This document shows positions 19,324-56,282 of a stretch of 64,000 nucleotides of DNA, in pieces (position 1 is the first letter of the stretch; every line of letters begins with the position of its first letter). The position numbers and the translations under genes are program-made. The DNA comes from Eledone cirrhosa (lineage: Eukaryota): positions 6,510,001-6,574,000 of the forward strand of contig OZ024756.1 of the NCBI GenBank assembly GCA_964016885.1. Reading direction: 5' to 3'. A model generated the notes under the pieces. The model was not told the origin of the DNA. It searched no databases and worked only from the letters and a program-made list of their open reading frames with translations.

Positions 19324-19984
19324 CTTACATACTAAGGTTACGTTCTCGCGGCAATCTAAATTAAAACGACAAGGGAACGGACACATATGATGTTCTTGAA
19401 GCCTTTTATATGTAAATATATATACATATATATATATGTGTGTGTGTGTGTATGTGTGTGTATGTGTGTGTGTGCGTGTGGGTGTTTGTGTGTCATGTGT
19501 GTAAAAGGTTAACATAAACAACAAAGCAAACAATACAGTACAATGAAGAAGTATATTCGCTTAACGCTTGATATATTAAGAAAAGTTTCGTTACGTTTCA
19601 GACACTAGTCCTTCATCAGAAAATAAAATCAGAAAATAAAATGAGAAACAAAAAATGAAATAGAAAGATAGAGTGAGAAGAAGAAGGAAGAGAAAAAAGA
19701 ATTTAGAAAAAAACACATGTGCTTATTCAGTCATTATCGTATAACAGACGCACAGATTCTCTCTGGAAATAGGTGTGGGGGTGCTGGGGATTTTACGTGG
19801 CCGTGAGGGGCTGGGTGGCCCAAATAGTTTGAGAACCTCTCGTGTCGATGTTCGGCCTCTTCCAAAGAGATTGGATAAAAATGGAAGTTGTTAACCTATT
19901 ACCAACACCAGGGTCGTAGGAATATATTCCGAAAGACATCATTTATATATGATCATTACTGTGTCTCGTTATTACGTTAATAAC

Positions 19985-20561
19985 GGATTGGCAGTATCGG
20001 TAGAGGGTCGGACGCCATGCTTTGACGCATAGGGTTACGGCCGGTACCATTCTGAATTCAAATCCCGCCGAGGTTAACTTTGCCTTTCATCCTTATGGGG
20101 TCGAAAAAATAAAGTACCAGTAATGTACTGGTAATTGCTGGCCTTGTGCCAAACGTAGAAACAATTATTACGTTAATAACGGATTGGCAGTATCGGTAGC
20201 GGATCGGACGCCATGCTTTGCAGCATAGAGCTGCGGCCCTTTATCACCTGAATTCAAATCCCGCCGAAGTTAACTTTGCCTTTCATACTTACGGGGTCGA
20301 TAGAATAAAGTACCAGTAATACACTGGGATAATTGCTGGCCTTGTGCCAAATGTAGAAACAATTATTACGTTAATAACGGATTGGCAGTATAGGTAGCTG
20401 GTCGGACGCCATGCTTTGCAGCATAGAGTTGCGGCCCTTTATGACCTGAATTCAAATCCCGCCGAGGTTAACTTTGCCTTTCATCCTTACGGGGTCGATA
20501 AAATAAAGTACCAGTAATACACTGGGATAATTGCTGGCCTTTGTGCCAAACATAGAAACAG
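19985..20561 (+). mobile_element. Head-to-tail trimer of the Meta-type SINE
   Basis: Three copies separated and flanked by four copies of ttattacgttaataac. Confidence 0.9.
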
Positions 20562-20971
20562 TTATTACGTTAATAACTTATGTTACACATCACCACCCTT
20601 CCAACAATGGACACTACAAACAAATCACTACCACTATTAATACAACAATAAATTACAACAGCACTTATAAATGATAAATACCTTTGTCACGATAAACAAG
20701 ACAAGATAAATTTACTGATATCGGACCCAGCTCGAAATATGAGATGATTGCATTCACATTATACACTCGACTTTATGTATTTTTGAACATAAATCTATAA
20801 TGCTGTTTACAGTAACTCTATTGTTCTTGGGGAGTGAACTGGTTTTATAGTCTTCACGAAAACCTCGAGCTTACGTCTCGTAGGCACATACTCGAACACA
20901 CACTCACATACAGACAGACATAGACATACACACAGACACAGTCACAGACACACACGCATGTGTATATATAT

Positions 20972-25820: not shown

Positions 25821-25854
<34 letters not shown>

Positions 25855-25861
<7 letters not shown>

Positions 25862-26076
25862 AAGTTTGTCCTCATCAGTGGCCGTCCAACCGTCGTAGGC
25901 ATTTCGTCGCATTAAAGGCCATATACCTCAGGTTGGTGCGAGCAACGGCTAAAAAGAGTTGCAACCTGAGGTATATGGCCTTTAATGCGACGAAATGCCT
26001 ACGACGGTTGGAAGGCCACTGATGAGGACAAACTTTTTCATATGTAACCCATTTGCAGCGCCGCAGCTCCATTATT

Positions 26077-27319: not shown

Positions 27320-27669
27320 ATATTGTATTGTTTATATATATATATATATATATCATAAAATATATAAATCTGGACCTAGCTGTTGAACCGGCAAGAGCTT
27401 AACCGTCGGGGACCAGAATGTTTATAATATCTCTCGTCAAACTCGCCAGAAATGAATTGTTGACTTGATATGTTTCCTCTTTTTACGTTGCTTCACCCTT
27501 TGTGTCAGTTTACATTTTTTCTCTCTCTCCCCCCTTTTTTATCCAGATAACTTATTTTTAGTTATTGTTCGCCCTAGGTTGAGATATCTTGTCTCTAACG
27601 CGAAGAAATACCTATGATTCCTAGCAGACAACTGGCGATGGATATCACTCTCTTTCGTCCGTAACTTTT

Positions 27670-52693: not shown

Positions 52694-52726
<33 letters not shown>

Positions 52727-52731
52727 ACCAA

Positions 52732-55700
52732 AGATTGATATGGTTCATTGACTACTCAATGAATATAGTTTTACAATAGATTAAAAGCACTCTACAATGA
52801 AATTTTCTGGAGTTATTAATATTATTCAGAATATTAATAAATGAAGACATTCATATAATCAAAATATATGTTTTATTATATATATTTCGAAGGTACTGTG
52901 TTGTTTTTTAAGTACGTCCTCGTCAGATAAAATACATGAATTGATGTATGACATACCTCAACGGTCTTGATAGTTCAATTCCAGTATTGGCAGTGATTTA
53001 TTACAACAAATCTCAACATTTATACACCACAAATAATAACATGATAAACTTAAATTTAAAGAAGAAGAGGATGTGGAGCGAGATATGGGTATAAGGAGGG
53101 GTGAATATGAGGAGATGCGAGAACAAATAAAATAAATAAATACATACATACATAAATATTTAAATGAGTAAATATATATATTAGGGAAGAAATATATAAA
53201 TATTGCATCTTAGGGAAGAAATATATAATATATTGCACCTTCGAAGGCAGACATTGGAATAATTAGTAAAAACCTAATAGATAGGATGTTGCCAATGTTA
53301 AAATTGAGGTCAAAGCTAAACCTATGGAAGGGCATTACTGAAGTCATAGATTGGTTCAATAATATCGAAAATAAGAAAAATCATAAATTCATTCAAATGG
53401 ACATAACGAGTTATTACTCCTCAATAACCCCTAAACTACTAAATAAGGCGCTTTCATATGGATATAAACACACGGATCAATCTAGTGACGAGATTAATAT
53501 TATTTTAACAGCAAGGCGAACATTGATAGAATGTAATAATGATCTTTGGACTAGATCTGATATGCATAAAAACTTTGACATTACTATGGGCTCGTCTGAT
53601 TCGGCGCAAGTTACCGATCTTGTGGGAATTTTCATCCTTAATATGATAACTAGAAAACTGCCGGAGATTACCGGTGGTTTATATAGAGACGACATATTAT
53701 TTACTGTGGTTAAACATAATAATAGTGAATTAAATAGAGTAAAGAAAGTAATTATAGAATTCTTTAAACATTATGACCTGAAATTAGAAGTAGAAAATAA
53801 CAATATAATAGTGAATTTTTTTAGACGTAACTCTTAATTTGAACTCAGGGCTCTATTACACCTTCCATAAACTCAATGAAAACTTAAATTATGTTAGTTT
53901 TTATTCTAAACATCCTAAAAGAGTTAAGAAGGCAAAAGTCAACAGTGTCCAACAACGAATATCCAGGCTATCTGCGAATAGATCCATATTTAATAGTAAA
54001 GCTGTATATTATAACGAAGCGTTACATAAAGCAGGATATAAAAATAATATTGAGTATATGGAAAAAAATAATATTAATTATAATCGCAGTAAACATAATA
54101 ATAATAATAGAAATGACTGTAAAAACAACAACTTGAGGAATAAATCGTGGAAAAAATAAGGACTAGATCTATTAAAACACCTTTAGCACATTTATTTTTA
54201 AAGCCTGGGATAAATGTTTCCCTATATCACATAAGTATTACTCTATCTTCAATAGACACACAGTTAAACTCTTATTCAACAACTATGAATATTGCTAAAA
54301 AAATAGCAAAAATAAATCTTAATTTGAACCAACATATAATTAGCGATAATAACAATAATAATAATAATAATACATTAGTTAATTGGAATAACAATAATAA
54401 TAGTTTAAATACGAATAATAGTAGAACACCTCTAAATAATAGTAATAATACGAATAATATAAATTATAGAAATTACATAGAGATGAATTGTAACTGTAGA
54501 AGGAAATCTGAAGGAAATCCCTTACAAAATAACTGCTTTGACAAGAATAGAGTGTACAAATGTACCATTAAGACAAATAATAATAATAATACATATAACT
54601 ACATTGGTGCCACTTCATCTAAGTTTAAATACCGCTTTTACAATCATAAGCATTTTTTTTCTAATCTAGATAACAAATTTCAACATGACTCTCACAATTT
54701 ATATGGTCTTTGAAGATAAACATATCAAATACTCAATTTCTTGGAGTAAATTAAAGCAATCTGATTCCTACCAGAACGCATCTATTTAACCAAATTGCAT
54801 TCTTTGCAATCTAGAGACTCTATTGATAATTACAAATTATGACAATTTAATTAATAAGAAAAATGAGTTATTTAGCAGCTGTCAACATAAGTCTGGTAGG
54901 ACTTTCCAAGCATTATACAAATTTCGAAAAAATATTGATTATTAATATTTTTTTTTTTTAAATTAGTTATATAACTTTTTGCCTTACCGAAAAAAAAATT
55001 TTTTGTCGTTTTTATCTAGTAAATTAATCTCATTATGAGTCTCAGTATCCTTTGTTTGGATTTAGAAAGGTAATTGTTTAAGTATAAATTTCTTGATTTG
55101 TGGTTTGAAATATCTTCTGGTTTCAAAGTACTTAAAAGTTTTAAATATTCACATATGATGAACGAGTTATCTTCCTTTGTTTACATTCTTCGTAAATAAT
55201 TTTGTTCTGTCTAAATAGCTTGCTAAATTATATTTAACATGAATTATGCAGTTTAATAATATATGAAAATCCTTAAAGGGAAACTATATATAATAATAAG
55301 TAATTACTGAAGTAAATATGAAATAATAAAACATTTGAGAGAAAATATAACTGCAACTTAAACCTGTAATTAAATGACAATCAATGATTCTATAAAGAAA
55401 ATAGAATAACTCAGATAATAAATGATCTTAATATAAAAATATATATATATACTGATGGTGATATATGCATGTGTTTTAATAAATATCCTAATACACATAA
55501 TTATTTAATTATGCTTTAAAGATAAAAATGTTTTTAAAAGTTTTAACAAAATATTTGGTGAATGTGTTACTTATTTAAACTATGTATCTGATGGCTATAG
55601 AAAATAATTTTATTTGTTTAATTTTGATATAATATATAAGTATAATTAGCTTAAACATAACCAAATAAAAAATATATTAACATTTTCATCTTATTTAATT

Positions 55701-56259
55701 GGTTGCCTCTATTTGACTTAATATTTGAAAACAACGGTATTTCTATCTACCCCCTCATTCCTTTCTTTTTGTCGTTATTTCTTTTCTTCTCTTTCTTCCT
55801 TTTTTTATTTTTATATACTTCTTCCTTAATACTCATTTAAATATTTATGTATGTATTTATTTATTTTATTTGTTCTTGCATCTCCTCATAGTCACCCCCT
55901 CCTTATACCCATATCTCGCTCCACATCCTCTTCTTTAAATTTAAGTTTATCATGTTATTATTTGTGGTGTATAAATGTTGAGATTTGTTGTAATAAATCA
56001 CTGCCAATACTGGAATTGAACATCATGACCGTTGAGGTATGTCATACATCAATTCATGTATGTTATCTGACGAGGACGTACTTAAAAAACAACACAGTAC
56101 CTTCGAAATATATATAATAAAACATATTTTAATTAAGTGAATGTCTTCATTTATTGATATTCTGAATAATATTAATAACTGTAGAAAATTTCATTGTAGA
56201 GTGCTTTTAATCTATTGTAAAACTATATTCATTGAGTAATCAATGAACCATATTAATCT
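52732..56259 (+). mobile_element. 5'-truncated Penelope-like element with inverted pseudo-LTRs
   Basis: 52732-53200 is the reverse complement of 55810-56259; each pLTR carries an HHR (52870-52933 -, 56060-56125 +); RT and GIY-YIG lie between; (TA)n on both flanks. Confidence 0.92.
53238..54945 (+). pseudogene. Frameshifted Penelope-like RT + GIY-YIG endonuclease ORF
   Basis: PSKADIGIISK..FIQMDITSYYSSI..FDITMGSSDSAQVTDLVG..GGLYRDD; CNCR..VYKCTI..YIGATSSKFKYRFYNH; C-terminal CILCNLE..LINKKNELFSSCQHK; several frameshifts; Asn-rich linker. Confidence 0.9.
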
Positions 56260-56282
56260 GTCATTATATATATATATATAAT

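What the first reader, a model, noticed from the sequence alone, without database searches (positions are those of the whole stretch)
25961..26025. Candidate new hammerhead ribozyme architecture: scrambled core order, pseudoknot and a kink-turn in stem III
SEEN: five complete 65-nt instances (3838-3902 -, 9690-9754 -, 25872-25936 -, 25961-26025 +, 31414-31478 +) and one partial (62380-62420 -) share identical segment lengths: P3b(6)-NGA(3)-P3a(5)-H-P1(7)-TAATGNNNY(9)-GAA-P3a'(5)-NNY-GA-Y-P3b'(6)-P1'(7)-CTGAYGA-R. The stems covary. P1: tggcctt/aaggcca, tgat(a/t)tt/aaaatc(a/c), ctgttta/taaacag. P3a: ggtat/atacc, ggtat/atgcc, gatgt/acatc. P3b: ccaacc/ggttgg, ctatgg/ccatag. The base after CTGANGA and the base before GAAA pair as A-T, G-C or G-T in all but copy E. 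KNOWN: hammerhead types I, II and III are circular permutations of the order CUGANGA > GAAA > NUH. Here the order is NUH > GAAA > CUGANGA, which is none of them. The GAAA strand sits inside the stem I loop, making a pseudoknot, and stem II is reduced to about 1 bp with the 3' end exiting there. INFERENCE: P3b' runs into P1' with no linker, which is possible in cis only if stem III bends sharply, and a K-turn consensus sits at that point. I do not know a description of this topology, but I cannot search the literature.
Basis: partly seen in the sequence, partly recalled or inferred. Interest (0 to 1): 0.95.

Follow-up and report, generated by a model that had tools for sequence, protein, structure and literature searches.

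The report
Re-wired hammerhead ribozyme in animal retrotransposons
The repeat is a predicted self-cutting RNA whose hammerhead core is strung together in an order close to, but not the same as, a rare form described in 2023 from environmental RNA; here it sits at the tail of animal retrotransposons and in many thousands of non-coding copies, so a curiosity may be a common part of animal jumping genes.

Summary
The motif is real: all six listed copies are there, two more lie in the window, and the genome holds about 25,700 pattern matches against 347 in the reversed control. The order NUH > GAAA > CUGANGA is not new: it is type SGC (Eckert et al. 2023), known only from metatranscriptomes. [quoted passage not shown] The published SGC descriptor finds 0 of 197 and 0 of 18 copies. 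A pairing-free pattern found 18 fully folded copies among 79 hits in outside collections, most at the 3' end of RT + restriction-like-endonuclease (Hero-like) retrotransposons; 21 of 30 such loci in this genome carry it too. A kink-turn consensus links stem III to the joining helix in most families, not all. Cleavage is untested. Verdict: new variant of a known kind, in a new setting.

The parts
3831..3936 (-).
   Evidence: CM from outside copies only: E 2e-10
3717..4170 (-). Non-coding pyrimidine-rich repeat unit carrying copy A; ends at a (TA)n tract
9683..9796 (-). Copy B, a separate family: 7-bp P0 directly after CUGACGA, decayed Pa, leader 9760-9755 supplying G10.1 opposite C11.1, one mismatch in stem II, kink strand AUA, cut after 9740 (GUU)
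   Evidence: CM E 1e-10
25872..25942 (-). Copy C: leader and stem II intact (5/5), one mismatch in stem I, P0 5' strand lost at the inversion junction; cut after 25922 (AUA)
25961..26025 (+). Copy D, the finding's own coordinates: inverted 5'-truncated twin of copy C; no leader (2/5), no Pa, no P0; probably inactive, and a transcript across C and D would fold back on itself
   Evidence: (inverted repeat 25851-26046)
27540..27644 (+).
31380..31485 (+). Copy E: leader 31408-31413 (5/5), kink strand mutated to UCA, mismatch at pair 1.1-2.1; cut after 31428 (AUC); lies in a whole repeat unit 31013-31529
57288..57356 (+).
   Evidence: (E 5e-4); family assignment by eye
62380..62420 (-). Partial copy F: 3' half only, 5' part replaced by (TA)n

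Best explanation
A self-cleaving hammerhead ribozyme of the pseudoknotted (SGC/CSG/GCS) wiring class, with the chain opened at a new place: between A9 of CUGANGA and stem II. Order 5' to 3': P0, optional hairpin Pa, stem II 5' strand, joining helix PI, kink strand, stem III, NUH cut site, stem I, UAA, stem II 3' strand, GAAA, stem III', kink bulge, PI', stem I', CUGANGA, P0'. Stems I, II and PI meet in a three-way junction above the core, and a kink-turn (or a plain bulge) bends PI back onto stem III, so one molecule can close the cage (inferred). Its native home is the 3' UTR of RT + restriction-like-endonuclease non-LTR retrotransposons (Hero-like). In head-to-tail inserts it lies about 135 nt before the next copy's first AUG, so the likeliest job is to cut tandem or read-through transcripts into unit-length RNA and free the element's 5' end, as R2's 5' ribozyme and Penelope pseudo-LTR hammerheads are thought to; four helices bridge the cut, so re-ligation to a circle is plausible (inferred). 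The window's copies belong to non-coding, retrozyme-like families that took over the ribozyme and spread to over 20,000 places; whether Penelope-like or Hero-like enzymes move them is open (about 55:35). Shown: sequence, pairing, covariation, placement. Inferred: cleavage (about 0.85), one-molecule fold with a kink (about 0.6), processing role (about 0.55).
For: Core letters and a cleavable NUH: AUA 46, AUC 32, GUU 16, GUA 6, other 3 of 103 own-genome copies with intact PI and stem III. Own-genome alignment, 51 distinct copies: 88.8% of cells paired, 20 of 24 pairs with changes on both sides, slid controls 31-46%; leader stem II alone 84.3% against 16-48% slid. P0 follows CUGANGA directly, up to 11 bp or more. 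A model built only from those 18 ranks the five window copies first (E 1e-10 to 2e-6). Placement: 6-92 nt from stop codon to cut site in six outside loci; 21 of 30 own-genome loci chosen by protein likeness carry the fold, 22 of 30 by the model against 3 of 40 Penelope-like loci. Tandem junction identical in two loci. SGC ribozymes with the same 3-nt I-II linker, joining helix and a U inserted after A9 cleave in vitro (PMC10085705). The same motif, 89% identical, lies behind the same host-like gene in two contigs whose other UTR sequence does not align.
Against: No cleavage data. Splitting the A9-10.1 step with a helix is beyond what was tested in the 2023 paper. Many own-genome families lack G10.1-C11.1: 11.1 pairs with the tail base in 37 of 51 rows, with the leader in only 3 of 12 families, and some pair with neither. 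Two central stem II pairs hardly vary in this genome, and own-family versus cross-family leader pairing is only 4.0 versus 3.3 of 5. An unbiased mutual-information ranking put only 2 predicted pairs in its top 40 (unaligned flanks and decayed singletons). The number of pairs with two-sided change is no higher than in shuffles for alignment A1 (184 of 500). The kink consensus is broken in some families (2n-1n = UC in 8 of 103; U-rich loop in L351-L353). The 3D fit was not modelled. A cut in the 3' UTR would separate the ORF from the 3' end where reverse transcription starts, so cleavage must be slow, reversible or switched off at times. One non-coding unit folds no better than shuffles (z 0.04), unlike described retrozyme circles. 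Own-genome Hero-like copies mostly hold stop codons.
Confidence: 0.65

Rival explanations
1. Same pairings and same chemistry, but the active form is a strand-swapped dimer (two units of a tandem transcript), because PI cannot reach both the top junction and stem III in one molecule.
For: Zero-length links PI' to stem I' and stem II to PI; the 2023 paper flags the same geometric puzzle; amphibian type I hammerheads cleave as dimers (PMC7229834 passage); 26 of 45 neighbouring pairs of copies are tandem; several tails are near-palindromes.
Against: The path from stem III' to the top junction (6 nt plus 6 bp) is no shorter than in SGC-1 (3 nt plus 5 bp, parsed by eye from the oligos), which cleaves during transcription; a kink consensus sits where a monomer needs a bend; most autonomous copies carry one ribozyme.
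Confidence: 0.13
2. The fold is kept as the 3' recognition element for the retrotransposon protein (as R2's structured 3' UTR is); cleavage is negligible or vestigial.
For: It lies in the last 150 nt of the elements; cutting there would harm reverse transcription; a kink-turn is a typical protein site (PMC5061560 passages).
Against: A binding element has no reason to keep all hammerhead core letters plus a cleavable NUH across unrelated stems; the motif also persists behind a host-like gene with no retrotransposon ORF (L406, L375).
Confidence: 0.12
3. One reading: a 65-nt ribozyme with a one-pair stem II and the 3' end leaving there; the leader pairing is incidental.
For: 11.1 pairs with the base after CUGANGA in 37 of 51 own-genome rows with four pair types.
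Against: Leader pairing holds in 18 outside copies of unrelated sequence; there the tail pair forms in 1 of 15 rows.
Confidence: 0.04
4. On mobility only: the non-coding families are moved by Penelope-like enzymes, as ordinary animal retrozymes are, and merely borrowed the ribozyme from a Hero-like 3' UTR (the alternative, Hero-like enzymes, about 0.35).
For: 128 of 166 terminal copies end at (TA)n within 150 nt against 28% background, at variable distances; 16 of 45 neighbour pairs are head-to-head inversions; both are Penelope-like traits (PMC8557442 passages) and are seen in this genome's Penelope-like family; Hero-like copies end at one fixed site, only some of them at (TA)n.
Against: Two sampled Penelope-like families carry type I cores, not this fold; Hero-like copies also show tandem joins and some inversions; no non-coding unit was found joined to either kind of ORF.
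Confidence: 0.55

Closest known systems
Type-SGC hammerhead ribozymes (HRIMA-1 motif and SGC variants; Eckert et al. 2023, PMC10085705)
   Same: Order of core blocks S, G, C; about 3 nt from stem I to stem II; a helix joining the far ends of stems I and II whose 3' partner runs into stem I'; pseudoknotted core; insertion tolerated after A9.
   Different: In SGC the stem II 5' strand and the joining-helix strand follow CUGANGA at the 3' end; here they are at the 5' end and are tied to stem III. CUGANGA runs into a new helix P0. Kink-turn consensus. SGC was found only in metatranscriptomes (583 sequences); this form is in animal-type genomic DNA and retrotransposons. Published descriptor matches 0 of 197 and 0 of 18.
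Type-CSG hammerhead ribozymes (same paper; two sequences from metagenomes)
   Same: Stem II, then joining helix, then a 2-3 nt link into stem III; UAA-like linker between stems I and II (read by eye from the alignment).
   Different: CSG begins with block C intact and ends after GAAA; here both links to stem III exist at once and the opening is inside block C.
Non-LTR retrozymes of animals (Cervera and de la Pena 2020, PMC7229834; Li et al. 2026, 10.64898/2026.07.22.740005)
   Same: Non-coding tandem units of a few hundred bases, one hammerhead per unit, very high copy number.
   Different: Described retrozymes carry type I hammerheads and are highly self-paired; these carry the permuted fold and are pyrimidine-rich, 375-706 nt by tandem spacing.
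Penelope-like element pseudo-LTR hammerheads; R2 5' HDV-like ribozyme
   Same: A ribozyme placed so that it can cut a tandem or read-through transcript just upstream of the element's ORF.
   Different: Penelope-like elements use type I; R2 uses an HDV-like fold at the 5' end. Here an R2-group element has a hammerhead-type fold at its 3' end.
Kink-turns Kt-7, box C/D and Kt-23 (PMC5061560)
   Same: 3-nt bulge then G-A and A-G; G, U or A at 2n as in Kt-23; U-U at the third pair in several families as in box C/D (the box C/D comparison is recalled).
   Different: No kink-turn inside a hammerhead was found in the searches made; it is replaced by a plain bulge or U-rich loop in some families.

Membership tests
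Hammerhead ribozyme (class) | Core CUGANGA, GAAA and NUH flanked by stems I, II, III | tested here: met
   core letters were part of the patterns, but loci picked by protein likeness also carry them
Hammerhead ribozyme (class) | G10.1-C11.1 closing pair of stem II | tested here: inconclusive
   met from the leader in 11 of 15 outside rows and in family B; variable in other own-genome families
Hammerhead ribozyme (class) | Site-specific self-cleavage after NUH | not testable with these tools
   needs in vitro transcription
Hammerhead types I, II, III (Rfam) | Circular order C-G-S; match to an Rfam model | tested here: not met
   no match in the window at gathering scores; none at E up to 1 in six loci
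Type-SGC hammerhead | 5'-3' order S, G, C | tested here: met
Type-SGC hammerhead | [quoted passage not shown] | tested here: met
   UAA linker; PI 91.8% and 96.7% paired
Type-SGC hammerhead | Block C intact: stem II strand directly 3' of CUGANGA | tested here: not met
   my coding of the published descriptors matches 0 of 197 own-genome cores and 0 of 18 outside loci
Type-CSG hammerhead | 5'-3' order C, S, G | tested here: not met
   CUGANGA lies last
Kink-turn | 3-nt bulge followed by G1b-A1n and A2b-G2n (or U/A at 2n) | tested here: met
   2n-1n = GA 68, UA 20, UC 8, other 7 of 103; G2n in 18 of 18 outside copies though not asked for; G1b and A2b were fixed by the pattern
Kink-turn | Kinked fold and L7Ae/15.5K binding | not testable with these tools
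   needs FRET, gel mobility or structure
Non-LTR retrozyme | Non-coding tandem repeats with one hammerhead per unit | tested here: met
   no blastx match of three units to four Hero-like proteins
Non-LTR retrozyme | Type I hammerhead | tested here: not met
Non-LTR retrozyme | Highly self-paired unit | tested here: not met
   one unit folded, z 0.04
Non-LTR retrozyme | Expressed as linear and circular RNA | not testable with these tools
   see Tried and rejected
Penelope-like element pseudo-LTR | Ribozyme joined to an RT + GIY-YIG ORF | tested here: not met
   two families, 60 loci; the model hit 3 of 40, each a neighbouring non-coding copy; other families not sampled
Hero clade (R2 group) non-LTR retrotransposon | Single ORF with N-terminal zinc finger, RT, CCHC knuckle and PD..E..K endonuclease | tested here: met
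   P0001, conserved columns, RVT_1, best solved relatives are R2 proteins; motif names recalled
Hero clade (R2 group) non-LTR retrotransposon | RT phylogeny groups with reference HERO elements rather than NeSL, R4 or Togen | not tested
   no reference set on hand; named relatives are from fish and lancelet, which fits the range given in PMC9004415

The most novel reading that the evidence does not exclude
An old, animal-wide ribozyme family native to R2-group retrotransposons: a seventh natural wiring of the hammerhead, gated by a protein bound at its kink-turn, that cuts and re-seals the element's RNA so that an autonomous LINE replicates through a circular RNA; the module has jumped into retrozyme-like parasites and has been kept in at least one host 3' UTR.
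Probability: 0.2. Interest if true: 0.93.

Novelty: new variant of a known kind. Interest (0 to 1): 0.8.

Why it matters
The 2023 paper found no SGC ribozyme in the genome of a known organism and allowed six block orders. This form breaks one of the blocks, was invisible to the published descriptors and to Rfam, and appears in tens of thousands of genomic places and in unrelated animal-type contigs. It gives R2-group elements a second ribozyme type at the opposite end, makes testable how such elements make unit-length RNA without a known promoter, and offers a natural hammerhead with a built-in kink-turn and a free helix next to the core, which is a ready handle for structure work and switch design.

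Tried and rejected
Expression: no RNA holder listed. Three runs of unrecorded kind were laid as contigs: one contig of run X5 (organism B) covers 1446-1603 of the unit, ribozyme included, at low depth; run X4 shows five 'go back' joints; neither can be read as expression, circles or range. Penelope-like partner: my first idea; two families checked carry type I cores. Viral contigs: a loose pattern gave chance matches in coding DNA (80 loci examined, best 8 of 12 pairs), a tighter one 0 of 3, and no Hero-like ORF. Prokaryote genomes: 1 of 20 hits folds, on a 2.7-kb contig that reads like host DNA. Mutual-information ranking was uninformative. Identity of the gene upstream of L406: Pfam, Atlas and a homolog search gave nothing usable. 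Earlier findings of the scan: nothing by sequence, place or words. Nested folding cannot show the pseudoknots and gave weak z-scores for window copies (-1.6, -0.4) and strong ones for two outside copies (-4.7, -4.0). No 3D model and no R-scape run were possible. Only 3 longer Hero-like stretches could be read, so how often the 3' end precedes a full-length copy is open.

Full report
1. Observation. The five full copies and the partial one are at the stated places. The pattern TAATG-N4-GAAA-N23-CTGANGAR finds exactly those five in the window and none in 100 shuffles. The window lies in a 3.0-Gb, microsatellite-rich genome of animal type (organism not named). GAAA-N7-GA-N14-CTGANGA occurs 22,273 times with a purine next (control 225) and 3,404 times with a pyrimidine next (control 122). 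These are pattern matches, not intact ribozymes. Rfam has no match.

2. What is already in print. Eckert et al. 2023 (PMC10085705; I read the abstract, parts 2-5 of 8 of the text, the first part of the Discussion, supplement parts 1 and 8 of 42, and search passages; figures not seen) split the hammerhead into blocks S, G and C and showed that the non-circular order SGC exists and cleaves (0.007-0.13 per min for SGC-1 to SGC-5).

3. The real anatomy. That is stem II. The UAA between stem I and this strand is then the 3-nt linker of SGC ribozymes, and 'P3b' is their stem I/II joining helix (PI). After CUGANGA the chain enters a further helix, P0, made with sequence 5' of the leader, often with a hairpin Pa between. 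So the molecule is the SGC/CSG/GCS cycle with both links to stem III closed and the free ends moved to a helix inserted at the A9-10.1 step. Counting on alignment A1: 199 distinct cores were found in the loci then held, 146 passed a filter that asks for UAA, U16.1 and no microsatellite, 56 were drawn at up to five per cluster, 7 were left out by eye (mostly 5'-truncated or shifted; not checked one by one) and 4 window copies added (copy D not included), giving 53 rows, 51 distinct. Of the cells 88.8% pair; 20 of 24 pairs change on both sides; slid controls give 31-46%. Stem II alone: 84.3% against 16-48%. Against: the count of two-sided pairs equals that of shuffles (184 of 500), two stem II pairs barely vary, cross-family leader pairing is nearly as good as own-family (3.3 vs 4.0 of 5), and relatedness inflates all such counts.

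4. Independent test. A fixed-spacing pattern with no pairing demand and no leader was run over metagenome, prokaryote-genome and viral contigs: 56, 20 and 3 hits. In these 18 the leader pairs at 79 of 90 positions, with sequences unlike the window's (GCCCCA/TGGGGC, GACCCA/TGGGTC, TCTCCA/TGGAGA, GCTCCG/AGGAGC). On their alignment (15 distinct rows; chosen on pairing, so the 91.1% is partly built in) position 11.1 pairs with the leader's first base in 14 rows, 11 of them the canonical G-C, and with the base after CUGANGA in 1. A covariance model built from these 18 alone ranks the five window copies first and finds two more. My coding of the published SGC descriptors matches 0 of 197 own-genome cores and 0 of 18 outside loci, which explains why the 2023 searches missed this form.

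5. Kink-turn. The loop between PI and stem III is 3 x 6 nt. By the nomenclature in PMC5061560 (passages) it has G1b, A2b, A1n and a variable 2n. Among 103 own-genome copies with intact flanking helices 2n-1n is GA in 68, UA in 20, UC in 8, other in 7; U and A at 2n are known from Kt-23. All 18 outside copies have G2n, which the pattern did not ask for. But some B-type copies pair through and leave a plain 3-nt bulge, and another family has a U-rich loop. A bend seems required; a kink-turn is the usual, not the only, solution (inference).

6. Where it lives. Seven outside loci show an ORF end with a restriction-like endonuclease motif just upstream (L416, L404, L399, L379, L430, L384, L380), and several more share upstream DNA with them. 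Stop codon to cut site is 6-92 nt in the six measured; in L380 the stop codon is the UGA of the kink strand. The full protein P0001 (1,132 aa) has a zinc finger, RT, CCHC knuckle and PD..E..K motif; its nearest solved relatives are R2 proteins, and named relatives come from fish and lancelet. I call it Hero-like; no tree with reference elements was built. L404 and L416 are 99.8% alike with open frames and different 3' flanks, so that family is young. Flanks suggest animal host DNA in these assemblies (an immunoglobulin exon; cnidarian-like proteins by eye). In the window's own genome the same protein search gave old, mostly broken copies; of the best 30, 21 carry the fold just downstream in two families (main family with a 6-bp stem III), 22 by the model, against 3 of 40 Penelope-like loci, two of which had been picked because they neighbour a copy. 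L470 holds a 611-nt 3' piece joined without spacer to a full-length 3.6-kb copy; L462 has the same junction; the cut site lies 136 nt before the first AUG.

7. The window's copies. They sit in non-coding units (tandem spacings 375-706 nt, 26 pairs; about 39% U) that form arrays of up to five, end near (TA)n at variable distances (128 of 166 within 150 nt; background 28%) and often have an inverted 5'-truncated neighbour (16 of 45 neighbour pairs). Copies C and D are such a pair; D lost the leader, Pa and P0 at the junction. This resembles animal retrozymes (PMC7229834, passages; bioRxiv 10.64898/2026.07.22.740005, parts 1-2 of 5; its supplements were not seen), which are described with type I hammerheads only. 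The insertion pattern is Penelope-like (PMC8557442, passages); the ribozyme is Hero-like. No shared upstream ORF was found among 168 copies.

8. Mechanism. Most likely the ribozyme cuts tandem or read-through transcripts once per unit. The 3' product starts with a 5'-OH shortly before the next ORF; the two products stay held by P0, II, PI and III, which favours re-ligation and could give circles. Reverse transcription starting just 3' of the ribozyme and running through a sealed site, or jumping between templates, would give the 1.2- to 5-unit inserts seen. None of these steps is shown.

9. Novelty. Ten full-text searches found 'type-SGC' only in the 2023 paper and, in listings and in the passages read (PMC7650587, PMC13708176, PMC4640811, PMC9004415), no ribozyme for Hero-clade elements. 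Most listed papers were seen as listings only; subscription journals and Repbase Reports are not covered. Verdict: a new variant of a known kind, with a new wiring detail and a new, apparently broad, home. Interest 0.8.

Noticed in passing
L406:897-968 (+) and L375:872-943 (-): The same ribozyme (89% over 93 nt) lies about 330 and 840 nt behind the stop codon of the same single-pass membrane protein gene, while the rest of the two 3' UTRs does not align: looks like a copy kept by a host gene. Gene not identified.
   Followed up: partly
L380:553-561 (+): The retrotransposon ORF runs through Pa and the leader, and its stop codon is the UGA of the kink-turn strand.
   Followed up: partly
window 53229-54713 (+), inverted repeat 52711-53203 / 55807-56280: Broken Penelope-like ORF (weak RVT_1 match, GIY-YIG-like motif by eye) inside an inverted repeat.
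   Followed up: partly
window 9273+, 19015-, 19619-, 26262-, 26979-, 43838-/43960+, 49795+, 52414-, 61239+, 62703+: Many ordinary type I-like hammerhead cores (CUGANGA...GAAA) of Penelope-like ends; pairing not checked; none reaches an Rfam threshold.
   Followed up: no
L251-L280, about 1.1 kb after the GIY-YIG ORF: A young Penelope-like family whose type I-like core reads CAGAAGA instead of CUGANGA, with a 3' UTR over 1 kb and variable ends in (TA)n.
   Followed up: no
L281-L310, about 205 nt after the match end: A second young Penelope-like family with a canonical type I hammerhead at a fixed place.
   Followed up: partly
L351-L353, L100, L106: B-related families in which the kink-turn is replaced by a U-rich loop or a plain bulge and the stem I-II linker is shorter: natural controls for the role of the kink.
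   Followed up: partly
L430 (contig CAMQSH010000302.1): A 2.7-kb contig in a bacterial genome bin carries a Hero-like ORF end and the ribozyme; probably host DNA in the bin.
   Followed up: no
window 8951-9199 and about 15 other places: A 190-nt dispersed repeat family, SINE-like, some copies in tandem (19969-20577); not examined.
   Followed up: no
PMC8557442, Motif Identification: The authors note Naiad elements with hammerhead 'half cores' 35-50 nt apart that fit no descriptor; these could be permuted forms like this one.
   Followed up: no
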